Origin: a bacterium
GTDB taxonomy: Bacteria; UBA8248; JACPRG01; G963555815
Assembly: GCA_965218795.1 (NCBI GenBank)
Contig: OZ244653.1
Location: forward strand, 2,848,001-2,912,000
Length of the DNA stretch: 64,000 nucleotides
Reading direction: 5' to 3'
The notes beneath the pieces are model-generated. The model was not told where the DNA came from. It saw nothing but the letters and a program-made list of their open reading frames with translations, and made no database searches. This document shows, piece by piece, positions 5,186 through 44,897 of the stretch (position 1 is the stretch's first letter; every line of letters starts with the position of its first letter). The translations under genes and the position numbers were made by a program.

Positions 5186-5397
5186 ATGGCCTTCGGACTC
5201 AATCGCGCTGAAGTGATCGGCCGCCTCGGCGCCGACGTCACCGTCAACCACCTCGCCAGCGGCGGACGCGTGGCCAACCTGTCGATCGCCACCGACGAGG
5301 GCTACATCGACAAGCAGACAGGAGACCGGGTCGACAAGACCGAGTGGCACCGGGTGGTGACCTTCCAGCCCGGGCTGGTGGACATGTTCGAGAAACA
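5186..5397 (+). pseudogene. ssb: ssb 5' half, interrupted by the integrated element
   Basis: MAFGLNRAEVIGRLGAD...TEWHRVV...DMFEKH, then unrelated AT-rich sequence; 3' half resumes in frame at 44675. Confidence 0.92.
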
Positions 5398-5398
5398 T
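5382..5398 (+). repeat. attL core: dyad ATGT-TCGAGAA-ACAT (putative 7-bp overlap)
   Basis: Matches 44662-44677; 4-bp inverted arms around a 7-nt spacer. Confidence 0.85.
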
Positions 5399-5536
5399 AT
5401 TATACCAAAACAGACAAACGTGCGATTGTCTTCGAATGAAACGCCTATACTATATGTCTTTCAATTAATTATAATGGATTCCTGTCTCTGATCTACCGCA
5501 ATTCGTACGTTTGCGTACGCCCCGGTTTCTTTTCTT

Positions 5537-5580
5537 GTGTTGACAACAGTGTTGCTAATTTCAATAAGCGGTGTTATAGT
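5537..5580 (+). promoter_or_regulatory. Integrase promoter TTGCTA-N17-TATAGT (extended TGn), overlapping GTGTTG(A/C) repeats (putative arm-type sites)
   Basis: -35 at 5552-5557, -10 at 5575-5580; repeats GTGTTGACAA 5537-5546 and GTGTTGCTAA 5549-5558. Confidence 0.65.
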
Positions 5581-5586
5581 CCGGGC

Positions 5587-6852
5587 ATGAACGAGAACAC
5601 CGGAAAACGCATCGCCAGGGTCAGGACGACACTCACCAGGCGCACCGTCGAGGCGCTCAAGCCCACAGAGAAGTCCTGGATCGCCTGGGACGACAAGCTG
5701 ACGGGCTTCGGCGTTCGCGTCCAGCCCTCGGGCACCAAGTCGTTCATCGTCAACTACCGCGCGGGCTCCGGCGGCCGCAAGGCGCCCAACAAGCGGGTGG
5801 TGATCGGACGCTACGGCCGCATCGCTCCAGACCGGGCGCGGCGCTTGGCCCAAGACCTGCTCGGACGCGTCGCCCGTGGCGAGGATCCTGCCGGAGAACG
5901 AGCCGATGCCCGCGGCGTCCCCACCCTGGCCCGGGCCTTCGAGGTCTACATGGCGGCGAATCCCAGCCGCGCGGTCAATACCGTCAGGCTCTACGAACAG
6001 AACCTGCGGGTCAACCTCTCCGACTGGCTGAAGCGTCCGCTCGACGCCATTACCCGACAGGACGTCGAGGACCGCTTCAATCTCATCACCGCCAGAAACG
6101 GCTGGTCGGCGGCCAACCAGACGCTCTCGATGCTGCGCTCGATCTACCGCCGGCCCTGCGTCGATTTCGAGGGTTTGCGCAATCCGGTCGACCTGTGGCT
6201 GGCGGCCGGGGGGCGCTTCCACCGGAAGCGGAGGCGGCGGATATCGAGCCCGGCCGAGGTGTTGCCTCGCTGGCGCGCGGGCATCGAGGCCGCCGACCTC
6301 GAACCGGAGGTTCGCGACATCTTCCTGATCGGCATCTACACCGGCATGCGCCGGGGCGAGATCGTTTCGCTGCGCCGGGAGCAGGTGGACATGGAGCGGC
6401 GCATCCTCAGGGTCGATGAGACCAAGACCGGGGAGCCGCTGGAGCTTCCGCTCACCCGGCAACTCGCCGCCATCCTCGAGTGGCGCCTAGCGGACGCCGA
6501 CCCGGCGGCGCGCCAGAACGGCTGGGTGTTTCCGTCTTCCAAGAGCGGGAGCGGACACGTCGCGGACATCGCGAGGTTCTACGGCGATATCACCGAGGAG
6601 GGAGGAACACGGTTCTGGTTCCACGGTTTGCGCAACGCCTTCATCACGGTGGCCGAGCGGGAACTCATGCTGCCGCGCTCGCTGACCAAGCGCCTGGTCA
6701 ATCACGCCCGGCCCCAGGACGTGACCGAGGGTTACGCCGCTGACTGGACGGTGGAGCAGCTCCGAGAGCCCGCACAGCGGATCGCCGACCGCATTGACAA
6801 GCTGATGGGGGAAGACATGCCGGCTGCGGAGGCGCACCCACCTGAAAATTGA
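5587..6852 (+). CDS. int: Tyrosine integrase with N-terminal arm-DNA-binding (DUF4102-like) domain
   Basis: WDDKLTGFGVRV arm domain; catalytic TGMRRGE, HGLR, LVNH, TEGY. Confidence 0.95.
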   Translation: MNENTGKRIARVRTTLTRRTVEALKPTEKSWIAWDDKLTGFGVRVQPSGTKSFIVNYRAGSGGRKAPNKRVVIGRYGRIAPDRARRLAQDLLGRVARGEDPAGERADARGVPTLARAFEVYMAANPSRAVNTVRLYEQNLRVNLSDWLKRPLDAITRQDVEDRFNLITARNGWSAANQTLSMLRSIYRRPCVDFEGLRNPVDLWLAAGGRFHRKRRRRISSPAEVLPRWRAGIEAADLEPEVRDIFLIGIYTGMRRGEIVSLRREQVDMERRILRVDETKTGEPLELPLTRQLAAILEWRLADADPAARQNGWVFPSSKSGSGHVADIARFYGDITEEGGTRFWFHGLRNAFITVAERELMLPRSLTKRLVNHARPQDVTEGYAADWTVEQLREPAQRIADRIDKLMGEDMPAAEAHPPEN

Positions 6853-6978
6853 GATATGTCAGCGTATTGAGAAGCGCGTTCTCCAACGAGTAGCGGCGAT
6901 AGTATCCTTCCGCTTCGCCCGCTGCAGTTCCGGCGCTGGATGCGTCAAGCGAGGAATCTAACCCGTCGTCGATCTCAT

Positions 6979-7036
6979 CTGACCTCTTAACCTTCTCGTC
7001 CGTACTATGAAGTATGCAAGATGGTTAAGAGGTCAG
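6979..7036. repeat. 14-bp perfect inverted repeat CTGACCTCTTAACC...GGTTAAGAGGTCAG (MITE/IS-end-like)
   Basis: Arms 6979-6992 and 7023-7036. Confidence 0.6.
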
Positions 7037-7108
7037 GTCTGGTGCTTTTCAAGTTGCGGTAGTCATCCGCAGTCAAATGCGTACCGGGCTTGAGATCCCG
7101 TCTCAGAC

Positions 7109-8040: not shown

Positions 8041-8091
8041 GCGCGGGCTCCATGGAACGGGGCCGGTATTGACGGTGAAGACCGGCTTGCC

Positions 8092-24377: not shown

Positions 24378-24729
24378 GTTCAGAGCACCTTGCCGACGAC
24401 GTCGACGTCCTGGGCGAAGCATGAGTACGGGGCGTCGTCCGGGTTGGCGGAGATCAGCCTGAGCCGGACCGGGTCCCGCCTGATCGCCTCCCTCTCGTCC
24501 CTGTTCCTCTCTGAACCCATCTTTTCCCTTCCACCTGCCGTAATCCCCGGTTTTTTGCCGCACCCCCGCGCATTCCATTGCGGACGTGCGCAGGAATGTC
24601 AACCGACTGTAGGCCATGCACTATCGATACCTGTGGGCAAGCACGCACCTTCCTCTTATGTTCCTTCCCATGACAACGCCCGGCGCCCACTCCGACCTGC
24701 CCCTGGACGAGCACCCGCGACGGCCCCTT

Positions 24730-30612: not shown

Positions 30613-33027
30613 TTGGTGCAAATACCACCCTGGACGATTGTTGCCGGCTTAGGGTCGCTCGACCGGAGTGAGTTGTGCGATTTGTTGGCGGTATTCGAAG
30701 ATTCAAAACTTTTTAACATTGTTGCCGACCGGGTTCGGGACATCACCCAACGCCGGGCGGTCACCGAAGGGATGGAAAACGACCCGGCGTTTCGGCAGCG
30801 CCTCAAGGCGACATCCGACAGGACGAATCAATCGCAACATCCCGACGCTTTGCTGCGACTCAGGCTTTGGCAAGCGATGCGCGCCGCCTTCGAACTGGAC
30901 GCCGCAATTCCGCTATCGACGAGAACGGCCAATCTACGTGCCGCCGATGTGGCCCAACGCGCCGCCGACGCACTCCGCGATACGATCACCGCGAACACAG
31001 AAGAGAAATCCTGGACCGACATCCCTAACCGCCTCCGGTCTCGCGTGGAAGCGTTGTTCTCCCGTGAGCGGGTCGAGTTCAGCGCGGTTGTAGGCGCCCA
31101 GGCCTCGCGCATGGTGGCGAAAGCCGCCGAAGCAGGCACCCTGGACGACGCTGCGAAGGCCGAGTTAGTCAAAAGAATTCGAGAACAACTCGATCAGATA
31201 CCGCCGGAACTGCGGGACAAGTCGGCCGAGCAGGCCCTTAAAGCCGGCGATAAGGCAGCCTTGGCTTTGCTGACATCGGGATCATCTCTGGTGGGCCTTG
31301 GCGTCGCCGTCGAGCTTGCCGGTTTCGGCGCGTACATTCTGGCCGCCAAGGCATCGGCCATTATTCCTCTTCTCGGTGGCCAAAGCGCGGTGTCGTGGCT
31401 GTTCGTTCTTGCCAACCCGCTCTTCATTATTCCGATAATCCTCGGTGGAGGAGTTATCGTCGGTAGCCGTCTCAAACGATCGGTGCGAACGAAGCTGGCA
31501 TCAAGCCTCGCGGTCGAGATGGCCCTGAAGGGCCTCTCTGAGGGCAAAATCAGTCTTCAGATGTGCCTCAACGATTTCAAGTCATTGACTGCTTCCGATG
31601 TCGGCGGGGGCTCGGTAGGTACCAATCAATGGTACCACAGGCGGCTCAATCTCATTCATGATCTGGTCGGCAAACCCCTACCCGCGACGCCCGGCAGGCC
31701 CGAGAAATCCTTGGACAGGGCTCCGACCGGAAAGTCCATGGACGATCTGGAGAAAATCCTGTTCCCGGGTCAGAAGCGTATTGCCGGAGAGGAGATTGCT
31801 GTCGGCGGAATGACCCTCGCCGATGTCGTTTATGACGCGACCGCCATAGACCCTTCGGTGATTGCCGCCCTCGATCGGTCTCGATCGGACGATCTTGCCG
31901 GAATATTCAAGTTCGGCCGCGAGGCCGACCGTATCACGGATTTGTCCGGTGCCGCGCAAGTCGGCGCCGAGAACAATCTTCGAGGCTACGTCGCCGAGGA
32001 GGTCGTAGCTGCGCGTCTCGTCGAAGAGGGCCATCAGGTCAGCAGACCCGATTCGGCCAACCACCCGGGCTTTGACCTGATCGTCGACGGCCGGCCATTT
32101 CAAGTGAAGTGCCTGAGCAACCTCGACAGCCTCGCCGACCACTTCGAAAAATATCCCGACATTCCGGTTCTCGCTAACGCCGAACTAGCGACCGGGATCG
32201 AGGAAGCCGGTTACGCCTGGAGCGACAAGGTGTTCTTTGTCGAAGGCTACGACTACGAACATATCAATCAGATCATGGAGGCGTCGCTTGATGCAGGCGC
32301 AGAACTCGACGATCTCGACATTCCTGCCTTCGCAGTCGCCGTGTCGGCGGCAAAGAACATCCACGCTTGGTGGAAAGGGTCCTTGCCGCTTGCAGATATC
32401 CCCTTCGAGGTTGCTGTCGATGGCGCCGTCAAGGGTAGCTTGTCGGCGGCGGGCGGATTTGTCGGCAACACGCTTGGACTTCTGGTCTTTGGGCCGGCCG
32501 GCGCCATCGTCTTTAGCGGCGTCGGCGGAGCCGCCGCTCTTTTCGGCTCGGGTCGGGTGCGACAAAAGGTCGATCGTGCCCTGGTCGGCGAATGGCTCGG
32601 GCTTGTGGATGCAGACTCCGAGCGGTTTCGGGCATCGCTGAAAAACGCCATGCGGCAAAAGATCGATATCCTCCGTCAAAAGGCCAATCAACTCGACGCA
32701 TTCGATAACGAGCATGTTCCATGGCTAAAACTGCGCCTCTTCGATAACGCGCTTACGATCGCAGAATGCATGGCGGACCTGGAAATCGATTCGGTCAAGC
32801 GCGATCAGCCGGAGCGTGCAACGGCGTATGTACGCCTTATGAGAGAAGCGAGCGTCCACCCCTGGTCGGTCAATTCCGAGCTTACAGCGCTCATGGACAA
32901 TCTCGCCGGAAAGCCGGGCTTGACGGATATTGGGCGCGATCATCTCGATAATGCGATTCGGAAAACCAAGGACTTGGCAACACGAACCCGCACCCGATGG
33001 TTCGAATCGAACAGGTCTTCGGATTGA
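30613..33027 (+). CDS. 804-aa hypothetical protein: hydrophobic Gly/Ala-rich segments plus a PD-(D/E)xK-like motif
   Basis: RGYVAE...HPGFDLIVDGRPFQVKC; two hydrophobic hairpin regions; start codon uncertain. Confidence 0.7.
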   Translation: MVQIPPWTIVAGLGSLDRSELCDLLAVFEDSKLFNIVADRVRDITQRRAVTEGMENDPAFRQRLKATSDRTNQSQHPDALLRLRLWQAMRAAFELDAAIPLSTRTANLRAADVAQRAADALRDTITANTEEKSWTDIPNRLRSRVEALFSRERVEFSAVVGAQASRMVAKAAEAGTLDDAAKAELVKRIREQLDQIPPELRDKSAEQALKAGDKAALALLTSGSSLVGLGVAVELAGFGAYILAAKASAIIPLLGGQSAVSWLFVLANPLFIIPIILGGGVIVGSRLKRSVRTKLASSLAVEMALKGLSEGKISLQMCLNDFKSLTASDVGGGSVGTNQWYHRRLNLIHDLVGKPLPATPGRPEKSLDRAPTGKSMDDLEKILFPGQKRIAGEEIAVGGMTLADVVYDATAIDPSVIAALDRSRSDDLAGIFKFGREADRITDLSGAAQVGAENNLRGYVAEEVVAARLVEEGHQVSRPDSANHPGFDLIVDGRPFQVKCLSNLDSLADHFEKYPDIPVLANAELATGIEEAGYAWSDKVFFVEGYDYEHINQIMEASLDAGAELDDLDIPAFAVAVSAAKNIHAWWKGSLPLADIPFEVAVDGAVKGSLSAAGGFVGNTLGLLVFGPAGAIVFSGVGGAAALFGSGRVRQKVDRALVGEWLGLVDADSERFRASLKNAMRQKIDILRQKANQLDAFDNEHVPWLKLRLFDNALTIAECMADLEIDSVKRDQPERATAYVRLMREASVHPWSVNSELTALMDNLAGKPGLTDIGRDHLDNAIRKTKDLATRTRTRWFESNRSSD

Positions 33028-33054
33028 ACGAAGGCTTTATACGGGCGTTGACCG

Positions 33055-33455
33055 ACCACAGACCTCGCGCAATCTCGATCTCCTGCTTTACACCCGTTCG
33101 GTGATCGCCAATATGGTCCGGGGAGGGGACGGCAAGGGGTGCACCATGTCCCACGAGAAGCTCTATACCTCGAAGACGTTGATCGGCGCCCTGTATCGAA
33201 GCGAGCTGGTGTGCGATCTGGACAGGCTCGTCTAGCGGGATCGAGAAGACCCATGTGGACGGGCGGTTCGAGATCGCGGGCATGTCGAGATCGACGCGGC
33301 GATGGCCGAGCGGGGTCTCAGCGATGCGGGGGAGACTCCGCGCCTCGCCTAGCGCGCAGTGCTCATGACCCGCGCCCACAAGTGCGACATGGACAAGGCG
33401 GCGCAGGAGAAGGTTCCAGAGCCGAAATCCATCAGGCACGATCTCAGGCTGTCGC
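33055..33455 (+). pseudogene. Decayed MOBF relaxase remnant
   Basis: TSRNLDLLLYTRSVIANMVRGGDGK...EKLY matches 27795-27950, followed by fragments resembling later parts and the C-terminus of the relaxase. Confidence 0.8.
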
Positions 33456-33679
33456 CCACGCTATCATGCGGGCGCCGATCGGTTACGAGAACTGGCGGAC
33501 ACAGCGCTGGTCGACCTGCGTGTAGAGTCGGCACCACGCCATCGGTGAATATCTTTCGGTATTCGAGAGTGTCGCAGACCCGGAAGACAGGATGTCGGAG
33601 GAAAGAGGAGATGGCTCAAAGCGTTCGGCTCAGGTCAAGGCGGGAGTTCACCGGGAAGGGTGCAAATACTCGACCGCCG

Positions 33680-34645
33680 TCAATCGTCGATGGCGGCCTC
33701 CTCGATCAGTTCGGACACTCGCTTTACACAGTTCACGAGCGATCCGACATCTGAGCGCCGGGTGATGTACCACCGGGGGCCGTGAGCAACTTTGTTTCTG
33801 TATCGTTCCAGAAACCGGATTTCCTTGCTCTTAATCGTTATGAAACCCTCGCGTTTCGCAGCTCGTAGCAGCGATCCGAATTTGAACCGCTCTATTTCTC
33901 TTTCTGGACCAGAGCCCATTTTGCCCAGCGAACCCATGTCCAATCCCTCGTCGGTTCGGACAATGTCCAGCAACTGCGGTTGCCTGATGCACAATTGCCG
34001 CGCAAGCAAAGTTTCCAGATGAGAAAATTTTGTAAAGAGCAGAACGCGCACGGGGAGCCTTTGCAGATCTTCGACGTCGATAGTCCCGAGTTTCTCCCCG
34101 GCTAGTTGGACCAACCGAAAGGGCCGTACGTCCGCCGTGAGGAGGTAATCGATCAAAGGGCTGTCCCCATGCAGCCAGTTGTCCGGGCCCAACGGTTCGA
34201 ATACATCTTTCACGAGCAGGTTCTGTTTTGGGTCGTTGTGCTGGACCTCCCCACGAGCTCTATCCAGATCAAGGACGCCAGTTGCGTTTGTTCCGTCTAT
34301 TACCGCCATGTATCTGAGCCGCCGGACTTCCGGATGCGCAATCAGATCTCTAACTTCACGGGACTCTTGGCAGGCAAAGATCGTTTCCTTTTGGCAAACG
34401 GAACTCACCGGGAAGCCCTGCCTGATGATGGTCTCGACCACTTCTGTTGGCGTTCCTCCGCTAGCCGATGGATCCGGCAGCCACGGGTCGACGGCCAAGG
34501 ATGCGGCCGATCCTGTGGTGCCGTCATCTTTGACCCATATCTGCAATGCGCCCGCCGGTATGTAAACCCTGTCTCCCGCGCGTATTTCAACGCCGGTGCT
34601 CCTGTTTTCCGAGTCAGCTTCGCTGCTCTTTTTTTGATCGTTCAT
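33680..34645 (-). CDS. CBS-like domain protein with C-terminal HEPN-type motif
   Basis: MAVID...GVLD and LVQL...GTIDVEDL CBS-like pair; RNKVAH (R-x4-H). Confidence 0.6.
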   Translation of the reverse strand: MNDQKKSSEADSENRSTGVEIRAGDRVYIPAGALQIWVKDDGTTGSAASLAVDPWLPDPSASGGTPTEVVETIIRQGFPVSSVCQKETIFACQESREVRDLIAHPEVRRLRYMAVIDGTNATGVLDLDRARGEVQHNDPKQNLLVKDVFEPLGPDNWLHGDSPLIDYLLTADVRPFRLVQLAGEKLGTIDVEDLQRLPVRVLLFTKFSHLETLLARQLCIRQPQLLDIVRTDEGLDMGSLGKMGSGPEREIERFKFGSLLRAAKREGFITIKSKEIRFLERYRNKVAHGPRWYITRRSDVGSLVNCVKRVSELIEEAAIDD

Positions 34646-34961: not shown

Positions 34962-35294
34962 TTATCGCCTGTTCCGCAAATTGGCGGACGTCTTATCCGG
35001 TGCCTCGTCCGGCAATTCCGGCGCGATCTCGGAGATGTTCCGACTGATTTCCTCGACCTCCTCCTCTCGTCCGGCCCTCTCCATGTCCCTGGCCATGGCC
35101 TGGGCCGCGAACATCGCCGACCGAAGGAGCTGGATCTCGTGCTCCGTGCACGGCCACTCCCTGTGGTCGAGGGCCTCCATCGCAAGCTCGACCACGAGCC
35201 GGTTCGCCGAGATCCCTCGCTCCTCCGCCTCCTTTTCGATCCGATTCCATTGCCCGGGCGTGACCCGAATGTTCTTTTGCAGTGTCCGAACCAT
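34962..35294 (-). CDS. Ribbon-helix-helix protein, putative relaxosome accessory factor (inner element)
   Basis: KNIRVTPGQWNRIEKEAEERGISANRLV; lies on the lagging side of oriT. Confidence 0.6.
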   Translation of the reverse strand: MVRTLQKNIRVTPGQWNRIEKEAEERGISANRLVVELAMEALDHREWPCTEHEIQLLRSAMFAAQAMARDMERAGREEEVEEISRNISEIAPELPDEAPDKTSANLRNRR

Positions 35295-35424
35295 CAGCTT
35301 TGCCGATCCTTTTGTGAAGACTTCAGTCCATTCCGGTCCCGAAATAACAACAAAAAGTCTGCTCCTTGGCGCCTGACGCACCCGTTCCGGACTGAAAAAG
35401 CTTCCCAACGACCCGGAGGCTGGA

Positions 35425-35596
35425 CTACCAGATTGGTAGCCATTATAGCCCGGCGCATCCCCGCGCGCGACCATTTTGATAGTCGGCGTATGCTCATCAG
35501 ATATCCTGCTCGAACTCCAGGCGCGATGCGCCCTTCGATAAGTATAACAATATCAGATAGATAGCGCCGTATATCCATGGGCTACCATATTGGTAG
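35425..35596. promoter_or_regulatory. Two palindromic sites CTACCA-N3-TGGTAG
   Basis: 35425-35439 and 35582-35596, between the RHH gene and oriT. Confidence 0.6.
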
Positions 35597-35961: not shown

Positions 35962-36885
35962 TCAGGCGGCAACGCACTGGACCGGGATACCGAGCTTGCG
36001 CGCCTTGTCGACCAGATTGTCCGTGATGCCCGAACCCGGGAACGCGATGACGCCCTTGGGGAGGAGATCGAGCAGCTCGTCATTGCGCCGGAAGGGAGCG
36101 GCGCGTCCGTGTGCGTCCCAGTCGGGCTTGCAGACGATCTGATGCACGCCGTTGCGGTCCGCCCACTTGGCCGCGATGCGCTCGACGCCGGGGCCGCCGC
36201 CGTGGACCAGGACCACATCGTCGTACTTGGCCTTGAGCCTCTCCAGATGCCGGATGACCGTACCGGCGTCGGTGGCCTGCTTGCCGCCTGCCACCGCCAC
36301 GAGCGTTCCCTGTGGCAGGAGCGCCTTGTTCTCCCGGTCCCTGCGGGCACGCTGGAAGTCGCGGGCGTCGATCATGGCCGAAGTGAGCTTGCCGGTCTGG
36401 CTGGTGTGGGACCCGCGCCGGGGCCGCCAGACATCGCCGGTCTCGATGCGGTAGGCCTCGGCCGCTGCATCTCTGAGCTGCTCGAAGGCGTCCCGCCGGT
36501 CCGTGAGGTTCTTGGTCCGGTCGGTGACGAGTTCGAGCTCTCGGGACCGGATCTCGGAGCCGTCCTGCTCTCGCTGGAGGTCGCGCATGTCGGGGACGAG
36601 CCTGTCGGCCGCGCGGTCGAGGCGCTGGGTCTGCGCGTCGAGCATGTTGACGAAGCCCCAGAGCAGGCTCTCGCGCTCGTCGGCGAGCTGCGTTCCGTCG
36701 GGCGCGACGCCGTGTGCCATGATGCGGAAGGCTTCCGTGACGGCGGAGAGGGCGTTTTCCGGGTCCCAGAGCTCCCGGTTGTCGAATTCGTCTTGCTCCG
36801 GGGTTGCTCCGAAGAGAGCCGCCTGGTCGCAGACGGTGGCGGTGACGGACTGCGCTTGCGCTTGGATGTTGTCGATATCGTTCAT
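35962..36885 (-). CDS. DUF2493 / YspA-SLOG domain protein (307 aa)
   Basis: VAVAGG, LVHGGGPGVE, PDWDAHGRAAPFRRND, FPGSGIT; AAGGAG RBS. Confidence 0.8.
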   Translation of the reverse strand: MNDIDNIQAQAQSVTATVCDQAALFGATPEQDEFDNRELWDPENALSAVTEAFRIMAHGVAPDGTQLADERESLLWGFVNMLDAQTQRLDRAADRLVPDMRDLQREQDGSEIRSRELELVTDRTKNLTDRRDAFEQLRDAAAEAYRIETGDVWRPRRGSHTSQTGKLTSAMIDARDFQRARRDRENKALLPQGTLVAVAGGKQATDAGTVIRHLERLKAKYDDVVLVHGGGPGVERIAAKWADRNGVHQIVCKPDWDAHGRAAPFRRNDELLDLLPKGVIAFPGSGITDNLVDKARKLGIPVQCVAA

Positions 36886-37533
36886 GATGCTCTCCTTATG
36901 GATTGAGTGTAGAGAACCGTTACGGTTCGTTGTGCGGAGAGAGTCTCCGAACGTGATGGTTGAGTGGCCCACGCGCACGCAGCAAAGCCACCGTGGCCGC
37001 AAGGCCTGGCGCGGCGAGTGGCGCGAGTGGTGCGGGCGCACAAGCGACCGCAGGGAGCGCGGAGCCTCGGTCGCGTTTCTCGCCGCGCCTAGGCGCTTCA
37101 GCGCCGTAGCCTTGCGAGCCAAGGCCGGAACGGAGCGTAGCGGAGAGTAGGACCCCTTAGGGGTTGGCGCAGCGAGCACGTGTGGGACAATGGGCCATCA
37201 CGTCGAGAGGGATATTGTTAGCGATTGGCACGGACCCCCTGGGCGGTTCCGGGATTGAGACCCGGGTCTCGGGCGCCGGCCCGGCAAGCGGAGATTGCAG
37301 CGGATAGCCCGGTCCGAAGGGATCGCCGGCATACTGCATGGCCCGTCACTGCAACGGACGCGTATCGACGAGTCGCTCCGCAACCTCGCCGACGCGATTG
37401 CCATCGTGGTAGACCCTCGACTCGTACGGGCGATGCTCCTCAAGGTAACGGTTTGCATTTCGGTTCTCCTTCCGTGTTGCCGATGCCCGGGGCCCTCTCT
37501 CTCCCTCCTCGCGGCGTTCGCCCCTCTCCCGCT

Positions 37534-37849
37534 TCACTCTCCCCTCCGTTCCGCCAGAACGGAGGCCGCCCATGCCGCGGCGCGGGCGAGGACCTGCCCA
37601 TGGCAGGCCAGCGGCTTGCCGTGAAGGGCGGCGAGTTCGTCGAGCCCGACCTCGGCGGCGCGAATGCGGCGCCAGAGATCGGCGCGATAGCGCGCGATCA
37701 CTTCATCGCGCGGTCCGTTCGGACCGATGCGGAACCGGTTTCCCCCATTGAGAGCGGTGGTCGATCCGCACGGTCCCGCCGTGCTCCGCCTTGCCGTCGA
37801 GCGCCGCCCGCAGGGCGGGCGCATGCCTGAGATTGACGATGTGCGCCAC
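37534..37849 (-). pseudogene. DUF4326-like gene, frameshifted, with the WCAPLPC segment deleted
   Basis: RIDHRSQWG / NRFRIG...RDEVIARY...GKPLACHG; extra base in the G5-A3 run. Confidence 0.65.
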
Positions 37850-37873: not shown

Positions 37874-38905
37874 TCACCCCTCCCCCGCTCTTCCCTCCCT
37901 CTCTCCGACCCGCTGCGGCGCGGGGAACAGGGCGGCGAGCCGAAGGGCCAGGGCCCGGGGTCCGAGAGTGACCAGATCGTCGTTGAAGTCGCCGTATTCG
38001 GAGACGATGACGTGGGCGGCGACGCCCGCCCGCGCGCAGCGCCGGGCGAGGCGTTGGGCGGCCCGTTCGCCCTCGGAATCGTTGTCGCGGGCGATGACGA
38101 GGCGCGCGACGCCGCCAGGCGGAGCGAACGCGCCGAGGCTTCCGGCCGAGAGCGCGGCGGCCGAAATGACCCCGGGCGCCGCGGTGACGATCGACAGAAC
38201 GGTCTCGATGCCTTCGCCGACGAGCAGCGAAGCGCCGTCGGCGGGCCTGCCGAAGCGCACGGCGCGTCCGTGGATGCGGCCGAGCGCCTTGCGCGGGGCC
38301 GCGACGTCCGCCTTGGCGGGCAAGCGCGGATCGAGCCAGGTGCGCTGCACGCCGTGGATGGCGCCGTCGTCGCCGGTCACGGCGGCGACCAGCGCCGGAA
38401 AACGGCGCAGGGAAGAGCCTTCGCGATAGCGAAGCTCGGGATGAAAGCGCAATGCCGGGAACCGGCAGCGCGCGAGCCCGCGGGCGCGGAGATAGGCCTC
38501 GGCATGGGTGCCGCCGATGGCGAGGCAACGCCGCCAGAGGCGGCGGGCCGCTTCTGTGGCGTCGTAGCTCTCGCCTGACGCCGGCGGAGCCTGCAGGGCG
38601 AGGAAGGCGCGGGCCTCGGCGAGCGCCGCGCGCAGCGTCGGCGCGCCAGAGCGATGCCGGACGAGATCGAGCAGGTCGCCGTGCTCTCCGGTGGCCGCGT
38701 CGGTCCACTTCCCGGGGACGCCGGGACCGTGCAGGCGGACGAAGAGCGAACGCCCGCGAGCGCCTTCGAGATCGCCGGCGACCCAGTACCGGCCCTGCTT
38801 GCGGCCCTGGGGCAGGTAACGCCGGCACACGGCCTCGGCGCTCGCGCCGAGCGCGGCGGCGATGTCGGCGGCGGGAGATGCGGAACGGGACGATGGGGGC
38901 GGCAT
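37874..38905 (-). CDS. Toprim-domain primase-like protein (343 aa)
   Basis: VGEGIETVLS, IARDND, DFND; GGAGG RBS. Confidence 0.8.
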   Translation of the reverse strand: MPPPSSRSASPAADIAAALGASAEAVCRRYLPQGRKQGRYWVAGDLEGARGRSLFVRLHGPGVPGKWTDAATGEHGDLLDLVRHRSGAPTLRAALAEARAFLALQAPPASGESYDATEAARRLWRRCLAIGGTHAEAYLRARGLARCRFPALRFHPELRYREGSSLRRFPALVAAVTGDDGAIHGVQRTWLDPRLPAKADVAAPRKALGRIHGRAVRFGRPADGASLLVGEGIETVLSIVTAAPGVISAAALSAGSLGAFAPPGGVARLVIARDNDSEGERAAQRLARRCARAGVAAHVIVSEYGDFNDDLVTLGPRALALRLAALFPAPQRVGEREGRAGEG

Positions 38906-39038
38906 GACGGGCCTCCTCTGGATGGACGGGGAACGCCCGATACCGGCCGGCCTCCGCCTCCGGCCGGCGCCGGAGGACGAAGCGCCGCGCGTAGCGCTGG
39001 CGCGAGGCCCGAACGGGCGCTGTCTCGGAACAGGCGGC

Positions 39039-39072
39039 AAAAAGAAAGGGCCGACGCGCGAAGCGCCGGCCC
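39039..39072 (-). terminator. Intrinsic terminator after inner ssb
   Basis: GGGCCGGCGC-TTCG hairpin followed by a T-rich tail. Confidence 0.6.
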
Positions 39073-39100: not shown

Positions 39101-39532
39101 TCAGAACGGGATCTCGTCCACCGCCGCATCGGCGGACGGCATCGCCGGGTCCGCCCCCGACACCGGCGCGCCGTTGCCGTTGGGCTTGTCGAGGAACTGC
39201 ACGCGCCCGCCCGGAACCAGCAGGATCTCGGTCGAGAACCGGTCGGAGTCCTCGTCGTCCTTCTTCCAGCGCCGGGTCTGCAGCTTGCCCGCCACATAGA
39301 CCAGCCGGCCCTTCGTCGCGTGCTTTTCGAACATGTCCACCAGCCCGGGCTGGAAGGTCACGACCCGGTGCCACTCGGTCTTGTCGACCCGGTCTCCGGT
39401 CTGCTTGTCGATGTAGCCCTCGTCGGTGGCGATCGACAGGTTGGCCACGCGTCCTCCGGTGGCGAGGTGGTTGACGGTGACGTCGGCGCCGAGGCGTCCG
39501 ATCAGTTCTGCGCGATTGAGTCCGAAGGCCAT
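39101..39532 (-). CDS. ssb: Single-stranded DNA-binding protein (intact, inner element)
   Basis: LNRAELIGRLG, TEWHRV, KGRLVYVAGKLQTRRW, C-terminal DEIPF. Confidence 0.95.
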   Translation of the reverse strand: MAFGLNRAELIGRLGADVTVNHLATGGRVANLSIATDEGYIDKQTGDRVDKTEWHRVVTFQPGLVDMFEKHATKGRLVYVAGKLQTRRWKKDDEDSDRFSTEILLVPGGRVQFLDKPNGNGAPVSGADPAMPSADAAVDEIPF

Positions 39533-39626: not shown

Positions 39627-39767
39627 CTATGAAAGCTCCTCTCCTTCGCCGGTGTCGGCATGGACCGCTTCGGTGAGGATCCTGCGGATGGTGTGCGAGT
39701 CGAGGCCGATCTCGGCGAGCAGTTCGTCATGGGTCGGGATGTCGGGTTCGAAGTCACGGTCGAGCAT
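39627..39767 (-). CDS. 46-aa acidic peptide upstream of ssb
   Basis: Copy of 4958-5098. Confidence 0.55.
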   Translation of the reverse strand: MLDRDFEPDIPTHDELLAEIGLDSHTIRRILTEAVHADTGEGEELS

Positions 39768-40293
39768 GGGCTGGCCTCCTGTTCCGGGTTGCCGTTCCCG
39801 GCATCGGGACCGGGAGACCGTCTCCCTCTTCCCCGCCGGGCGTTCGCCCGGCTCTTGCTTCCCTCTGGCTCTACGGCGAAAAGGCGCTCTGAGACCGTGC
39901 GCGGCCTTCGTTCTCGCCCGGTTGTCGTCGAACACGGACCCGGTCGGGCTTGCGTGCGGTGCGAGTTTCGAGTCGGATAAGGCGCATGGACGACGAGGGA
40001 TTCATCAAACGGCGCAGGTTTTGGCTTCTGGTCTTCTGTGGCTGCCCGCCGGAGTGGTCGCGACCGCCGCTCTCCGCTTCGCGCCGGAGGCGGGACCGGA
40101 GGTGGAGCCCGGGATGTGGCTGTCGATGCTGCTGATGTCGACGGCGTCGCTGATGGCGGGACTGCTTGGCCCAATCGTCATCGCCGACTACGCGATGGTC
40201 TTGAGCCTTCCGGTGTGGATCGCGTGGTGGTGGCGAGCGCGGCGGGGTTGAGGCCGGATGACGTCGGGCCGGCTGCGCAGCAATGCAGTCGGC

Positions 40294-40476
40294 TCACTGC
40301 ACGGTCTTGCTATCCGGTGCGCCGTTCTCGGCGCGCATGGACCGTGCGGCCAGGGTGGTGGGAATGTAGCCGCTCATGTCGTGGATAACGATTCTGATCT
40401 GCTGTAGATCGTTGTCGAGGTCGTAGGCCGGGGAGAAGGCGTAGTAGGGGTTCTTCGGCAGGGTGTGCGCGGTCAT
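40294..40476 (-). pseudogene. Truncated homologue of 3689-3943
   Basis: MTAHTLPKNPYYAFSPAYD...IRIVI; diverges after about 45 aa. Confidence 0.55.
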
Positions 40477-40589
40477 GTGCGGGCCTCCCTTGAGGGGTCG
40501 ACGGTGCGCCGGGGGGCGCGGGTGATAGTCCCCCCGCTGGCGGGCGGCAGGTCGGCAGTACGTACCCCCGGCGAGCCGGCGCATAGAGG

Positions 40590-41414
40590 TCACTGCCCCG
40601 TAAAAGACGCCATCGGTGACGTATCCGAAATAATCTCCACCTGTTGGTGGGACAGCCGCGCGAAGGCCAGACACATGGCCACCTCCTCCCAGCTGTCCCA
40701 GGTCCCGTGGTCCTCGCCCGTGGCGACCTCGATCACGGTGTAGCGAGGCGGAAGGATCGGAAGGCCGCGATGTTCGGCCGAGCGCACCCAGGACCGGTGC
40801 GCGCACGGCACGCACCGCGCCGCTCCCTGCGAGGGCTCGCCGCAGTCAGTGCAACGCCACCCCACGCGCCTGTGGGCGTAGCGCCTTCGGCTGGCCGCGT
40901 TCTTCCGTGGATGGCGCCCGACCTCGAGAGCCGCGCAGGGACCGCAGCGCGAGGCGTGGTCAAGGATATGTCTTCCGCATCGACCGCACATACCCTCGGC
41001 CCGCCGGGCGGCATACAGCTCCCGTTCGGACGCTTGCCGGGCGTCACGGCAAGACTGGCAGGTCGTACCGCCCTGGACGGGTGCATGACGGCCACAGCGC
41101 GTGCACAGGCCGGCGTCCCGGTATGTCCTGAGACGCTTCCTGCTTCTCTCCCGCCCGATCCTTCGGCGGTCCTGCGGATCCCGGCCGCCGTAGAGCCTGC
41201 CCTCGGCCTTGCCCCTGGCGTACCGGGCGCGTTCGGCCTTGCGCTTCTTCTCGCCGCAGGCATGGCACAGGCTGCGGCCGGGAGGAAGGGACTCTCTTCC
41301 GCATTTGGGGCACAGGCCCTGGGCGATACGCTCCTTGGTGAGCCGGCGGTAGCGTTCCCGGTCTTGCTCCCGGGCCTTGCCGGGATCCTTGAAGGGCACC
41401 AGCATGTCCTCCAT
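40590..41414 (-). CDS. Basic Cys-rich protein with four CxxC...CxxC repeats
   Basis: CPKC..CHAC, CTRC..CQSC, CGRC..CGPC, CTDC..CVPC separated by Arg-rich helices. Confidence 0.65.
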   Translation of the reverse strand: MEDMLVPFKDPGKAREQDRERYRRLTKERIAQGLCPKCGRESLPPGRSLCHACGEKKRKAERARYARGKAEGRLYGGRDPQDRRRIGRERSRKRLRTYRDAGLCTRCGRHAPVQGGTTCQSCRDARQASERELYAARRAEGMCGRCGRHILDHASRCGPCAALEVGRHPRKNAASRRRYAHRRVGWRCTDCGEPSQGAARCVPCAHRSWVRSAEHRGLPILPPRYTVIEVATGEDHGTWDSWEEVAMCLAFARLSHQQVEIISDTSPMASFTGQ

Positions 41415-42279
41415 ACGGTTGGAATCGGGACGACGGACGACCGGCCGTCGGTGGGCCGGCGGGACGTCCCTTGAGAACGCCACTCAGCGCTGCAACATGT
41501 TCCGCCACACAACAGATTCGCCCCAGTACTGGACCCCGGAGTTCCGGAGGTTGGTTCCGGTTGCAATGATGATCTCGTCCCGCGCGGGCCGCATCTTCCG
41601 AACCGCTTGCCGGGACAATATCCTCCCCGTAGCCTCGCGCCGGTTCTTGGCCCTCGTACTCCCGTTGCGCAGGGGCCGGATGTCGCCGTCGGCCATGGAC
41701 CGGAAGCGCTCGACTACGTAGCGGTCGTCATCGAGACCTTGGCCGAACAGGTGGGTGAGGAAGGTGCTTGCGTTGCCGGGATGGGTCTGGACCGTGTGCA
41801 TGGCGCCGTCTCCTTCGGGTGGGTGATCGGGAATGGCGGCGACGTCCTCCCCCGGGACATCCGACCGCCGCCCGCTCACGGCCCGGCTCGGCCTCTTCGG
41901 GATGCACCACGCGTCCGGGGGAACGACCCCTGTGGCAGTCGTTCAGCCGGCAATCCGTTTGCTGAACGGACGAACTGCGGTCCGGCCCGGTGCTATTGAC
42001 CGGCTTTGCTGAAGGGGTTTGGTGAGCGATAGCTGGTGGACGTAATGTTTTCCCCAAAACCGGAAGATAGGGTCTCTCCAGAGGAAATTCCTTTCCTTCC
42101 GGCTCGCTGCTCCGGGAAGCACTTGGGACGACGTCTTGAGCCGGTTGCAGCCATAGGCCGGATGATCCAGCGTCGGCTCTTTGCTCCTCGCAGAGTTGGA
42201 CCCTAGTAGTTGGGCAGTGGACGGGGCCTGAACAGTGGTATCTTCTGCCGTACAGTTCTCCGAGGAGAAGGAGCGGAAG

Positions 42280-42661: not shown

Positions 42662-43291
42662 ATGGAAGTGGTTGAGGTTTATGATGACAGGGGGTACTTT
42701 CGCATCAAGGGGATATGCCCACATTGCAAAACAACAACCACATTCCCTACACTCGAAAGACCATGCAAGGAGTCAGATGAGTATGGGAACGCCCAGTTGA
42801 TCGGGGCTTGCAGATGCGATGCCTGCTCTGATTTCATTCTCGCAATTTTGGTATGGGATCACGAGCATCGTGAGTACCGATATAAAGAACACCACCCCGT
42901 CGGTGACCCCAACGATTCCGTTTCCGAGGAAGTGCCCCCCGAAATTTCAGAAGATTTTAAGGAGGCGCTCAGGTGCATGTGGGCAAAATCGTTCAAGGCA
43001 ACCGTTCTGATGTGCAGAAGGGCGCTACAGGTGAGTTGCGACAGGGAGAGTGCGGAAGGGAGGGATCTTTTCACTCAGATTGATGATTTGGCATCCAAGC
43101 AGCATATTACAAAACCACTAAAAGACTTGGCACACGGAATACGACTCCTGGGAAAAAGGGGAGCGCACGGTGATTTCTCCGACGTGGACGACACGATAAC
43201 CAAAAAAGATGCGGAAGATGCAATCAAATTCATGGCCCACTATTTGGATCACGTTTATGTTTTGCCAAAGCGGCTAGAAGATAGTCTATAA
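42662..43291 (+). CDS. DUF4145 (HEPN-like) protein with N-terminal Zn ribbon
   Basis: CPHC...CDAC; DFKEALRC...MCRRALQ...IRLLGKRGAHG; lower GC than flanks. Confidence 0.75.
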   Translation: MEVVEVYDDRGYFRIKGICPHCKTTTTFPTLERPCKESDEYGNAQLIGACRCDACSDFILAILVWDHEHREYRYKEHHPVGDPNDSVSEEVPPEISEDFKEALRCMWAKSFKATVLMCRRALQVSCDRESAEGRDLFTQIDDLASKQHITKPLKDLAHGIRLLGKRGAHGDFSDVDDTITKKDAEDAIKFMAHYLDHVYVLPKRLEDSL

Positions 43292-43344
43292 TCCCCTTGC
43301 GAGCGGGTTTTCAGGAATAGTCGCAAAAAACATTAGGTATCCCC

Positions 43345-43461
43345 ATGCCCTCCCCCGAAATCCTCAACGTAGAGCCCCGCGAGGCCGTGGAGTTCTTCCG
43401 CTCCAAGGGATACCACGTCGCCTTCTCCTGGAAGGACACCGAGGCCCTGGCAACAAGGTAA
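43345..43461 (+). pseudogene. Fragment resembling the N-terminus of phage Mu gpF-like head morphogenesis proteins
   Basis: PREAVEFFRSKGYHVAFSWKDT, then an early stop. Confidence 0.4.
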
Positions 43462-43647
43462 AGCCGGAAGACGTCGCAAAAAGTTTGAAGGAGGACCCAG
43501 GAACAATCGAACACCAAATTGCCCTTGCCATTGCTGAAGACCTTATCGCTGCGAATGCGAACTTTGAAGACTCAATGGACGGCCCCGTCATTGGCCAGGT
43601 GAAAATAATCTACGGTTTAACCCGTAAAGGAATGGAGGTAATTGGCA

Positions 43648-43875
43648 ATGATGACCGCCTATAAAACAGTTTGGGCTCCCGGAACGGATGCTCTGTGGTG
43701 GTCGCCGATCAAGGATCGCTTGGAACCGCTATGGCCGCCAGACACCCCCAGGGAGGAGATGCTGTCTGCATGTGAGGCCGCCTTCAAGAAAAAAGGAATG
43801 AAAATGGATGAGCATGTGTTGGTTCGGCCCGATGTCCACGGGAATCTTATTCCAACTCATCCAGGCCGATCTTGA
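43648..43875 (+). CDS. Small hypothetical protein
   Basis: GGAGG RBS upstream; no recognisable motif. Confidence 0.35.
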   Translation: MMTAYKTVWAPGTDALWWSPIKDRLEPLWPPDTPREEMLSACEAAFKKKGMKMDEHVLVRPDVHGNLIPTHPGRS

Positions 43876-44066
43876 CCAAGCCCATCTTATGTCAACGGGA
43901 TAATCGCCTCCCCAAAACCCTTGATTCCCCGCCGATTCGTCGCACCCCGTCGCATTTCCAATTATTTCCGTCACCCTGACCAGAGGCGTCGGTGCGAGCT
44001 GCTCGATGTGGCCCGTTCAACGGCGTACTACCGTGATGAGCTTTCTCTGCGGTAAGTGACTTAGGA

Positions 44067-44150
44067 TTAATGCCGAGTGAATGTGCCGAAAAACCCCATA
44101 AGCAAGCCGTCTTCAGCCCATCACTCGGCATTAACAACTACTCGGCATTA
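44067..44150. repeat. 14-bp inverted repeat TTAATGCCGAGTGA...TCACTCGGCATTAA plus a third partial arm
   Basis: Arms 44067-44080 and 44121-44134; ACTCGGCATTA at 44140-44150. Confidence 0.65.
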
Positions 44151-44566
44151 CCTCCTTGGGTGGGGTGGATGATGGCGGCGAGGAACGTCCTCTCCCGGAC
44201 GCCCCGCCCCGGCGAGGCATGGCTCGGCGCCGGCTGTCATGGGATATGGATGGTTCGTGAGGACGCATGGCGGATGAGCCGGGACGGGATGCTCCCGGGT
44301 AGGTTCGAGAGGGTTTCCGGAGCGTTCCCATCCCGCCCGGCTCTGGCTGGCGGCCTTCGTGGCCGATGGAAATCATCGAGAGATGGACACCGGCCTTGAC
44401 GACCATGCCGGCTAGCGCAGGGTGGTCAACTCATCAAGGGAAAATATGGGAAACCGTATCTATGACCAGGTGGGTTGCGGAGGTTGAACCCTTCACCGAA
44501 ACGGAACATCATTGTCGTTCTCACCCGGGCGCAGGCAAACGATGTCGTGTTTATGATCGATGCGTC

Positions 44567-44587
44567 GTGTTGCAATAGTGTTGACAA
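44567..44587 (+). promoter_or_regulatory. Putative integrase arm-type sites at the right end
   Basis: GTGTTGCAAT and GTGTTGACAA, same motif and orientation as 5537-5558. Confidence 0.6.
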
Positions 44588-44661
44588 TAATTATCTAGTA
44601 AATCAATTTATCAATAAATTATTTATATTCAATAGTTTATATCACATAAAAACTATTGAAT

Positions 44662-44897
44662 ACATGTTCGAGAAGCACGCGACGAAGGGCCGGCTGGTCT
44701 ATGTGGCGGGCAAGCTGCAGACCCGTCGCTGGAAGAAGGACGACGAGGACTCCGACCGGTTCTCGACGGAGATCCTGCTGGTTCCGGGCGGGCGCGTGCA
44801 GTTCCTCGACAAGCCCAACGGCAACGGCGCGCCGGTCGCGGGGGCGGACCCGGCGATGCCGTCCGCCGAGGCGGCGGTGGAAGACATTCCGTTCTGA
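44662..44897 (+). pseudogene. ssb: attR core plus ssb 3' half
   Basis: MFEKHATKGRLVYVAGKLQTRRW...EDIPF continues the 5186-5394 fragment in frame. Confidence 0.92.

What the first reader, a model, noticed from the sequence alone, without database searches (positions are those of the whole stretch)
5186..44897. A 39-kb mobilizable element that integrates into the ssb gene of a sibling element and brings a replacement ssb
Seen: ssb is split at ACATGTTCGAGAA (5382-5394 / 44662-44674), and joining the halves gives a 432-nt ORF, the same length as the intact inner ssb (39101-39532). A tyrosine integrase abuts attL, and GTGTTG arm-like repeats sit at both ends. The insert has a relaxase, a coupling protein and an oriT but no recognisable mating-pore genes. 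Known: integrases often restore their target gene, and some IMEs target genes of helper ICEs. Inference: this is a satellite that docks in a conserved leading-region gene of related conjugative elements, disrupts it and complements it in trans. I know of no described ssb-targeting case but cannot search.
Basis: partly seen in the sequence, partly recalled or inferred. Interest (0 to 1): 0.85.

Follow-up and report, generated by a model that had tools for sequence, protein, structure and literature searches.

The report
Mobilizable element docked in another element's ssb
A 39-kb integrase-bearing genetic hitchhiker has inserted precisely into the single-strand-binding-protein gene of a related mobile element, a habit shared by its relatives in several other bacterial genomes, and each carries its own copy of that gene with an altered target site.

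Summary
An ssb gene is split at an exact 13-bp direct repeat (5382-5394 / 44662-44674) by a 39,280-bp insert. The insert carries a tyrosine integrase next to attL, conserved GTGTTG arm repeats at both ends, a TrwB coupling protein, a TrwC relaxase and its own intact ssb, but no mating-pore gene. The same genome holds two more such insertions and four empty ssb sites with the identical core. Two of the empty sites lie in sibling elements that carry an F-type type IV secretion system. Four other genomes show the same layout: ssb 5' part, integrase, inner antisense ssb, ssb 3' part. In one of them the host element carries the F-type set. Close integrase relatives sit at ssb (12 of 15 in two supported clades). 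More distant relatives sit at tRNA-Met or at unrelated sites. I read this as a family of integrative mobilizable elements derived from an F-type ICE family and retargeted to that family's ssb. Mobilization, excision and ssb complementation are inferred, and no oriT was found. One new point: the element's own ssb always carries a changed core (6 of 6, against 12 of 30 free copies), possibly self-immunity. The closest precedent is Firmicute elements that insert in ICE genes. New variant of a known kind.

The parts
1..3555 (+). Host (outer) element: Strawberry-notch-type helicase, cut by the window start
   Evidence: Pfam AAA_34 2e-105, Helicase_C_4 2.5e-91; 78% aa homologue in the same position beside the split ssb in G002
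3861..4736 (+). Host element: GmrSD_C / Excalibur protein
   Evidence: Pfam
4839..5183 (+). Host element: small ORF upstream of ssb, paralogue of inner 39627-39935
   Evidence: tblastn 90% to inner u102
5186..5394 (+). 5' part of the split ssb (residues 1-69, then runs into element DNA)
   Evidence: 97% to inner SSB residues 1-71
5382..5394 (+). attL core, ACATGTTCGAGAA
   Evidence: same core in empty sites
5537..5555 (+). attL arm-type repeats GTGTTGACA-N3-GTGTTGC, about 35-50 nt before the integrase start; the second repeat overlaps a possible -35 (by eye)
   Evidence: conserved upstream of nearly all integrase relatives
5587..6852 (+). Tyrosine integrase, 421 aa
   Evidence: Pfam Arm-DNA-bind_3 1.2e-16, Phage_integrase 4.1e-14; copies at 99, 92 and 73% in the genome
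7090..10500 (+). Mosaic of gene fragments: RecQ C-terminal part, topoisomerase piece, LysR piece, IS pieces
   Evidence: Pfam partial matches; 91-98% DNA copies elsewhere in the genome
10630..24096 (+). Cargo: 4488-aa Ig-like repeat protein (He_PIG, Calx-beta) with about ten 825-bp tandem units
   Evidence: Pfam; self-matches offset by 825 bp
24616..25362 (+). ORF before trwB; homology to sibling ICEs starts at 24716, where their traG ends
25263..27323 (+). TrwB-type coupling protein
   Evidence: Pfam TrwB_AAD_bind 9e-137; 83% aa to the ICE copy at 2.68 Mb
27325..30183 (+). TrwC-type relaxase-helicase
   Evidence: Pfam TrwC 2e-82, AAA_30; 76% aa to the ICE copy
30613..34645 (.). Lower-GC cargo: 804-aa and 321-aa proteins of unknown family, plus a TrwC fragment at 33053-33403
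   Evidence: no Pfam family; GC 0.54-0.59
34962..35474 (-). NikA-like protein (weak match)
   Evidence: Pfam NikA-like 9e-5, below cut-off
35962..37179 (-). YspA/SLOG protein, paralogue of host 47105-48028
   Evidence: Pfam YAcAr 6e-21
37534..37824 (-). DUF4326-like ORF, paralogue of host 46173-46457
   Evidence: tblastn 84%
37874..39040 (-). DUF7146-Toprim protein, 97% aa to host 44957-46123
   Evidence: Pfam
39101..39532 (-). Element's own intact ssb (143 aa); core changed to ACATGTTCGAAAA at 39324-39336
   Evidence: Pfam SSB 7e-23
39627..41879 (-). Backbone ORFs: u102, double-zinc-ribbon protein, u131
   Evidence: conserved in all six elements compared
42662..43291 (+). DUF4145 protein (PD-T7-4-like)
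44567..44586 (+). attR arm-type repeats GTGTTGC-N4-GTGTTGACA
   Evidence: the same motif about 95 nt before the ssb 3' part in G001-G004, reversed-pattern control 0
44662..44674 (+). attR core, ACATGTTCGAGAA
44662..44897 (+). 3' part of the split ssb (residues about 67-143)
44957..51166 (+). Host element backbone: DUF7146-Toprim, DUF4326, YspA, 183-aa ORF, RecD2-like helicase
   Evidence: Pfam

Best explanation
The insert (5395-44661 plus one core copy, 39,280 bp) is an integrative mobilizable element. It descends from a family of integrative conjugative elements that combine an F-type mating pore with a TrwB coupling protein and a TrwC relaxase. It has lost the pore genes but kept TrwB, TrwC and the YspA-Toprim-ssb backbone. 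It also carries a P4-like tyrosine integrase whose clade has been retargeted from tRNA-Met or other sites to a 13-bp core at codons 66-70 of the family's own ssb gene. Integration between an attP core (with flanking GTGTTG arm sites) and the ssb core splits the target ssb and leaves exact direct repeats. Inside a sibling element the insert can be carried along passively. It may also be mobilized through the pore of a co-resident sibling ICE, using its own relaxase and coupling protein. What is shown: the anatomy, empty and occupied sites, separate insertions, recurrence in other genomes, and the absence of pore genes. What is inferred: excision, mobilization, and any functional replacement of the broken ssb by the inner copy.
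For: Exact 13-bp repeats at the break of ssb; 0 of 100 shuffles reach 3 matches. Four intact ssb genes in the same genome carry the same core, with flanks equal to attL-left plus attR-right. There are three integrase-linked ssb 5' parts (2853382, 1848275, 229186), and two of them have matching 3' parts 39 and 33 kb away. Against copy 3, identity is 98.3% on the element side of the junction and 87.4% on the flank side. The arm motifs occur only at these att sites, 6 of 6 genome-wide. They are conserved before the integrase gene across the 39 related loci and before the ssb 3' part in G001-G004. Of the 39 related loci, 9 have ssb residues 1-71/77 upstream of the integrase and 2 have residues 1-38. 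In the tree of 38 integrases the ssb-71 sites fill 9 of 10 and 3 of 5 rows of two starred clades. In 4 of 5 other genomes searched, the order ssb 5' part, inner antisense ssb, ssb 3' part is found within 31-43 kb. Six elements were compared: integrase 6 of 6, TrwC 5 of 6, full TrwB 2 of 6, inner ssb 6 of 6, pore genes 0 of 6. Sibling ICEs with TraE, K, B, C, U, N, H plus TrwB/TrwC have empty ssb sites. In G002 the split ssb lies in an element that carries that pore gene set. The window's TrwB and TrwC are 83% and 76% identical to those of the complete ICE.
Against: No excised circle or restored site was demonstrated. The contigs laid end 30 nt left of the junction. The loose ends at 5394 that read on into intact ssb sequence cannot be told apart from paralogous intact ssb genes. 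No oriT and no excisionase were found. The left part of the insert is a patchwork of gene fragments, so this copy could be decaying. All three occupied targets in this genome lie in siblings without pore genes, while the two pore-bearing ICEs are unoccupied. Three members of the two ssb clades (L028, L046, L048) sit elsewhere. One element (own copy 2) has neither TrwB nor TrwC.
Confidence: 0.8

Rival explanations
1. The insert is a dead remnant: a former conjugative element that integrated once, lost its pore genes in place and is now immobile. Under this reading the several copies arose by segmental duplication or homologous recombination among the many sibling elements, not by site-specific integration.
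For: There are gene fragments and IS pieces at 7090-10500. Sibling repeats are abundant in the genome. Copy 3 lacks a recognisable attR, and a lone attR-like site lies 4.2 Mb away, which points to large rearrangements between copies.
Against: Identity drops from 98.3% to 87.4% exactly at the junction between copies 1 and 3; a segmental duplication would carry the flank along. The core repeats are perfect. Integrase, TrwB and TrwC are full length. The same layout recurs in four other genomes with different cargo and sizes.
Confidence: 0.1
2. The ssb site is merely a safe harbour. The integrase recognises a short sequence that happens to lie in a dispensable, multicopy gene of mobile elements. 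Neither riding on the host element nor supplying a replacement ssb matters. The inner ssb is simply inherited backbone.
For: The inner ssb lies in the same YspA-Toprim-ssb-DZR module as in the siblings, so it need not have been acquired as a replacement. Related integrases use tRNA-Met and assorted sites. Occupied targets in this genome are in non-conjugative siblings.
Against: In G002 the target lies inside a pore-bearing ICE, which gives passive co-transfer. The inner ssb core is altered in 6 of 6 elements, which suggests that the relation between the integrase and ssb is under selection. This rival differs from the main reading only in the benefit proposed, not in the mechanism.
Confidence: 0.08
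3. The split ssb is an assembly artefact caused by collapsing or mis-joining near-identical repeats in a long-read metagenome assembly.
For: The genome holds about 14 ssb-related stretches and many 85-98% repeats. Contamination is estimated at 6.4%.
Against: Contigs from 4 runs of 3 studies contain the junction-specific stretch 5365-5514, although one of these runs may be the source sample. The same junction sequence type is found in independent genomes.
Confidence: 0.02

Closest known systems
IMEs integrated in conserved genes (traG, Maff2-related, SNF2 helicase) of Tn5252-superfamily ICEs in Firmicutes (review PMC5704250; passages read with 'find')
   Same: A mobilizable element inserts site-specifically inside a conserved gene of a conjugative element, disrupts it, and can ride with its host element.
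   Different: Those elements are listed with serine recombinases, occur in Firmicutes and are unrelated to their host ICE. This one uses a tyrosine integrase with arm sites, lies in a high-GC genome whose related loci are mostly labelled Alphaproteobacteria, and is a derivative of the same element family it targets. It also carries its own copy of the targeted gene. The term 'ssb' does not occur in that review (0 occurrences).
IMEs integrated in the oriT of ICESt3/Tn916-type ICEs (PMC7563843; search listing and abstract only)
   Same: An IME docks in a conserved functional site of a helper ICE.
   Different: The target there is a non-coding oriT and the relaxase is of the Rep_trans type. Here the target is a coding sequence and the relaxase is TrwC (MOB_F by recall).
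P4-like tyrosine integrases of genomic islands that target tRNA genes
   Same: Same domain architecture (Arm-DNA-bind_3 plus Phage_integrase). The sister clade of this integrase family abuts a tRNA 3' end with a CAT anticodon, read by eye.
   Different: The clades studied here insert in the middle of a protein-coding gene and do not restore it. The gene is split, not rebuilt.
dusA-targeting integrases (PMC4482086; search listing and abstract only)
   Same: A tyrosine integrase clade is specialised on one site inside a protein-coding gene across many genomes.
   Different: dusA is a chromosomal housekeeping gene, whereas the ssb here belongs to mobile elements. Whether dusA is restored at the junction I did not read.

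Membership tests
Tyrosine (P4-like) integrase | N-terminal arm-binding domain plus C-terminal catalytic domain | tested here: met
   Pfam Arm-DNA-bind_3 61 bits (cut-off 27) and Phage_integrase 53 bits (cut-off 27.1)
Tyrosine (P4-like) integrase | Catalytic R...H-x-x-R...Y residues | tested here: inconclusive
   R263 and R349 are invariant in 37-38 of 38 aligned relatives. GMRRGE, FHGLRN and EGY stretches were read by eye. No structural or biochemical check was made.
Tyrosine (P4-like) integrase | Insert bounded by direct repeats of a core, with arm-type repeats in both att arms | tested here: met
Integrative mobilizable element (IME) | Own integration module | tested here: met
   integrase next to attL
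Integrative mobilizable element (IME) | Relaxase and/or oriT | tested here: inconclusive
   A full TrwC relaxase (Pfam positions 2-284 of 286) and TrwB are present. No oriT could be located.
Integrative mobilizable element (IME) | No complete mating-pore gene set | tested here: met
   0 hits in the window for TraE, K, B, C, U, N, H, G and neighbouring proteins of the sibling ICE. No pore family was found by Pfam.
Integrative mobilizable element (IME) | Excision and transfer with a helper | not testable with these tools
   only contigs were available
F-type / TrwC integrative conjugative element (the sibling family) | F-type pore genes next to trwB-trwC | tested here: not met
   Present at 2.66, 0.53 and (decayed) 4.68 Mb; absent from the insert and from the whole window
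IMEs that dock in genes of Tn5252-type ICEs | Serine recombinase and a Tn5252-superfamily host ICE | tested here: not met
   The integrase is a tyrosine recombinase and the host family has F-type pore genes. The element works like these IMEs but is not a member.

The most novel reading that the evidence does not exclude
Because the element targets a gene that it also carries, it protects its own ssb by changing the crossover core. In 6 of 6 elements the inner ssb has a substitution at core positions 11-13: GAG to GAA, AAG to CGG giving K70R, or both. Every occupied target has the unchanged GAGAA core. The same escape alleles circulate among free ssb copies of the sibling ICEs (12 of 30). This would amount to a target-site arms race between a conjugative element family and its ssb-docking parasites.
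Probability: 0.3. Interest if true: 0.75.

Novelty: new variant of a known kind. Interest (0 to 1): 0.62.

Why it matters
It extends the 'mobilizable element docked in a gene of a conjugative element' lifestyle in three ways. Known cases are serine-recombinase elements of Firmicutes; here it is a tyrosine-integrase element in high-GC genomes mostly labelled Alphaproteobacteria. It shows such a parasite arising from the very element family it targets. It also gives a compact natural system (one integrase clade, one 13-bp core, several natural core alleles) in which to test how integrase specificity is retargeted and whether elements evolve self-immunity at their own copy of the target. These genomes carry 7-13 ssb-bearing elements each, so this interplay may shape a sizeable part of their mobile DNA.

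Tried and rejected
Searches of the own genome for VirB4 (PF03135) and TrbL (PF04610) gave nothing. For a while this suggested a genome without any pore. TrbI and AAA_10 and then Pfam on the region showed that the pores are F-type.

The oriT search found only short, weak inverted repeats in 24050-25300 and 34600-36000. No oriT is claimed.

The excisionase search with HTH_17 (PF12728) gave 9 hits in the genome, none inside the insert.

Tandem Repeats Finder missed the 825-bp units of the giant gene because its longest period is 500. The period comes from the blastn self-matches.

Read evidence for excision was not obtainable. Only Logan contigs were on offer. The 20-kb limit prevents laying both ends together. 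The contigs across attL carry just 30 letters left of position 5394, under the tool's own bridging rule. Loose ends at 5394 in X1 and X6 read on into intact ssb sequence, but could come from paralogous intact ssb genes. I draw no conclusion on excision.

Codon 69 GAG/GAA polymorphism (22/15 of 37) is not unique. Codon 94 shows 26/11, so polymorphism alone is no sign of selection. The inner-versus-free contrast is 6 of 6 against 12 of 30, hypergeometric about 0.01, or 7 of 7 and about 0.005 if the ssb at 4377327 is counted as inner. It is not corrected for relatedness. A short masked-core tree scatters the inner copies among the free ones, but with low resolution.

Flanks of the more distant integrase relatives were checked for other ICE genes. 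They encode Kelch, LuxR-type, enoyl-CoA hydratase, CoA-transferase, GST and HNH proteins, with no common target.

Rearrangement between inverted ssb paralogues was rejected as the origin of the split. It would leave intact hybrid genes, not AT-rich arms with an integrase.

Literature: five searches and two 'find' look-ups gave no ssb-targeting integrative element. This covers only the held library, and supplements were closed and not seen.

Full report
**1. The observation**

The 13-bp string ACATGTTCGAGAA lies at 5382-5394 and 44662-44674. A one-mismatch copy lies on the opposite strand at 39324-39336. Dinucleotide shuffles give 0.02 matches on average, and 0 of 100 reached three.

Left of the first copy runs the 5' part of an ssb gene from 5186. 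Right of the second copy the 3' part runs to 44897. The parts are 209 and 223 nt, 432 nt together, the length of the intact ssb at 39101-39532 (-). Compared separately with that inner protein, they match residues 1-71 at 97% and residues 67-143 at 95%.

The DNA just inside both junctions is AT-rich and unrelated to ssb.

**2. What the insert carries**

Pfam results are:
- A 421-aa tyrosine integrase (Arm-DNA-bind_3 plus Phage_integrase) that starts 193 nt after the left core.
- A patchwork of fragments: RecQ C-terminus, a topoisomerase piece, a LysR piece and IS pieces.
- A 4488-aa Ig-like repeat protein built of 825-bp units.
- A TrwB coupling protein and a TrwC relaxase-helicase.
- About 4 kb of lower-GC DNA with two proteins of no family.
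- On the opposite strand: a weak NikA-like protein, a YspA/SLOG protein, a DUF4326 ORF, a DUF7146-Toprim protein, the inner ssb, and three further backbone ORFs.

Outside the insert the host element shows the same module in the other orientation: ssb, DUF7146-Toprim (97% aa), DUF4326, YspA, then a RecD2-like helicase. On the other side lies a Strawberry-notch helicase. Host and insert are therefore siblings.

**3. The same genome holds empty and occupied sites**

The window is 2848001-2912000 of a single 5.17-Mb contig.

- **Integrase copies.** There are copies at 100, 99, 92 and 73% identity.
- **ssb copies.** There are seven intact or nearly intact ssb paralogues, three 5' parts and three 3' parts.
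- **Empty sites.** The exact core, with flanks equal to attL-left plus attR-right, occurs in four intact ssb genes: 197269, 504815, 2701572 and 3129208.
- **Occupied sites.** These are the window copy, a 33-kb copy (1848275 to 1881434), and a third copy with attL at 229186 whose attR I did not find.
- **Arm motifs.** GTGTTGACA-N2-AGTGTTGC and GTGTTGC-N4-GTGTTGACA occur six times in the genome, always at these att sites.
- **Separate insertions.** Between the window copy and the third copy, identity is 98.3% over 2.1 kb inside the junction and 87.4% over 0.58 kb outside it. Nearly identical elements thus sit in clearly different targets. This points to separate, recent insertions rather than duplication of a block.

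**4. Pore genes**

The window has none. Pfam gave none, and tblastn with 13 proteins of a sibling's transfer region hit only TrwB, TrwC and a TrwC fragment.

Elsewhere in the genome, TrbI and AAA_10 hits led to a region at 2.66-2.68 Mb. It encodes TraE, TraK, TraB, TraC, TraU, TraN and TraH, then a 973-aa protein, then TrwB and TrwC. This is an F-type pore joined to a TrwC relaxase.

A second, nearly complete set lies at 0.52-0.54 Mb. A decayed one lies at 4.67-4.69 Mb.

The two better-preserved elements have intact ssb genes with the empty core (2701572 and 504815). Homology between the insert and these ICEs starts at window 24716, which corresponds to the end of their traG. The insert therefore looks like an ICE whose pore operon was replaced.

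The host element of the window has TrwB/TrwC at 2.92 Mb but no pore genes nearby. It is a non-conjugative sibling.

**5. Other genomes**

A scan of one genome per species with the integrase returned 39 loci, mostly from metagenome-assembled genomes labelled Alphaproteobacteria.

- **Flanks.** ssb residues 1-71/77 lie upstream of the integrase in 9 loci (integrase identity 79-96%). In L022 they lie about 1 kb further upstream than in the others. ssb residues 1-38 lie upstream in 2 loci of one genome (68% identity). The other 28 loci show no ssb. The junctions read ...ATGTTCGAGAA|ACAT... in the clear cases.
- **Other targets.** Seven loci abut the 3' end of a tRNA whose anticodon loop reads CAT (by eye). 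Others abut unrelated genes.
- **Tree.** A maximum-likelihood tree was built from 38 integrases; five short rows were dropped (L033, L057-L060). The ssb-71 sites fall in two starred clades, 9 of 10 and 3 of 5 rows, with the tRNA clade on the other side of the midpoint root. The three exceptions include junctions with partial core matches such as GAGAAACAT, as expected of secondary sites.
- **Full layout.** Searching five of the records with the SSB protein showed, in four of them, the 5' part, an intact ssb on the opposite strand and the 3' part in that order within 31-43 kb.
- **Gene content.** Across these four elements and the two complete own copies: integrase 6 of 6, TrwC 5 of 6, full-length TrwB 2 of 6, antisense YspA-ssb-DZR module 6 of 6, pore genes 0 of 6.
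- **A pore-bearing host.** In G002 the DNA to the right of the split ssb continues through Toprim, YspA, NikA, TrwC and TrwB into TraG, H, N, U, C, B, K, E (TraE and TraC appear as two hits each). A Strawberry-notch helicase lies to the left. Here the element is docked in the ssb of an ICE that carries the F-type pore gene set.

**6. How it most likely works**

- **Shown.** The core repeats, the arm repeats, the integrase, empty and filled sites, and recurrence in other genomes.
- **Inferred.** The integrase, bound to arm sites and core, recombines an attP core with the ssb core. The resulting attL and attR differ from each other only outside the 13 bp, and excision would restore ssb.
- **Inferred from gene content.** The element uses its own TrwC and TrwB with a sibling's F-type pore, or travels passively inside its host element.
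- **Not shown.** That the inner ssb 'replaces' the broken one. It is part of the inherited backbone, and whether ICE-borne ssb matters is unknown.

No oriT and no HTH_17 excisionase were found.

**7. A further pattern: the inner ssb core is always altered**

In all six complete elements the inner ssb differs from the target core at its 3' end:
- GAG to GAA in both own copies and in G004.
- AAG to CGG (K70R) in G001 and G002.
- TTC to CTC, plus GAA and CGC, in G003.

A seventh case is the ssb at 4377327. It lies 9.5 kb before a lone attR-like site and also has GAA.

Every occupied target examined has ATGTT(C/T)GAGAA, apart from a G-to-A change in the attL core of the third own copy. Of 30 free intact copies in five genomes, 18 have the target-type core and 12 a variant. 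The attR arm motif occurs only once or twice per genome, so most free variants are not hidden inner copies of this element type.

The contrast (about 0.01 by a hypergeometric count) ignores relatedness. The GAG/GAA polymorphism is not unique to this codon. A short tree with the core masked scatters the inner copies among the free ones. I treat self-immunity at the crossover core as a hypothesis with roughly 0.3 probability.

**8. Independent sequence support**

Contigs from four public runs of three studies contain the junction-specific stretch 5365-5514. They fall one letter short of the tool's bridging rule on the left, and one run may be the source sample. They cannot speak to excision.

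**9. Comparison with what is known**

The review of integrative mobilizable elements (PMC5704250, passages read) describes Firmicute elements inserted in traG, Maff2-related and SNF2 genes of Tn5252-type ICEs. Those elements are listed there with serine recombinases, and the review does not mention ssb. A paper on elements in the oriT of ICEs was seen as listing and abstract only. A 2026 preprint on mobilizable elements of Pseudomonadota has no occurrence of ssb, TrwC or MOBF. Three further searches gave nothing on ssb as an integration target.

The lifestyle is therefore known. The target gene, the recombinase type, the descent of the parasite from its own host family and the altered inner core are new as far as these searches reach. 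Supplements were closed.

**10. Verdict**

This is a new variant of a known kind. Interest 0.62.

Noticed in passing
window 10630-24096: A 4488-aa ORF with He_PIG and Calx-beta domains, built of about ten 825-bp tandem units. It sits where sibling ICEs have their pore operon. The copy at genome 214-223 kb has fewer units. The host element has a 96%-identical C-terminal part at 2.93 Mb.
   Followed up: partly
window 55528-60208: Pbe-type defence genes in the host element's cargo. PbeA appears split into two overlapping ORFs (55528-57375 and 56981-57808), followed by PbeC (58067-60208).
   Followed up: no
genome 179500-180918 (outside the window): The 73%-identical integrase is not at ssb. Its left junction at about 179500 lies inside the coding sequence of another tyrosine recombinase on the opposite strand. 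It faces the third ssb-targeting copy (attL 229186), and a lone attR-like site lies at 4386885. This suggests a large rearrangement between elements.
   Followed up: partly
L050 and L056 (one contig): A 68%-identical integrase abuts ssb truncated at residue 38. This is a second insertion point in the same gene, with a different junction sequence.
   Followed up: no
window 7090-8040: The RecQ C-terminal fragment inside the insert is 98% identical in DNA to two other genome sites (2234428 and 2647228). It looks like captured or shuffled host DNA.
   Followed up: no
own genome, many sites: Adjacent pairs of tyrosine recombinase genes occur at eight or more places (for example 476499/477704, 1836127/1837311, 2952437/2953826). 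This is reminiscent of recombinase-in-trio-type elements (resemblance recalled, not tested).
   Followed up: no
G001-G004: Each of these genomes holds 7-13 stretches of this ssb family. G004 and G001 each have a second attR arm motif near another ssb 3' part, so multiple ssb-docked elements per genome seem common.
   Followed up: partly
window 42662-43291: A DUF4145 protein next to attR matches the PD-T7-4 defence model (4.5e-9). It is possibly defence cargo of the insert.
   Followed up: no
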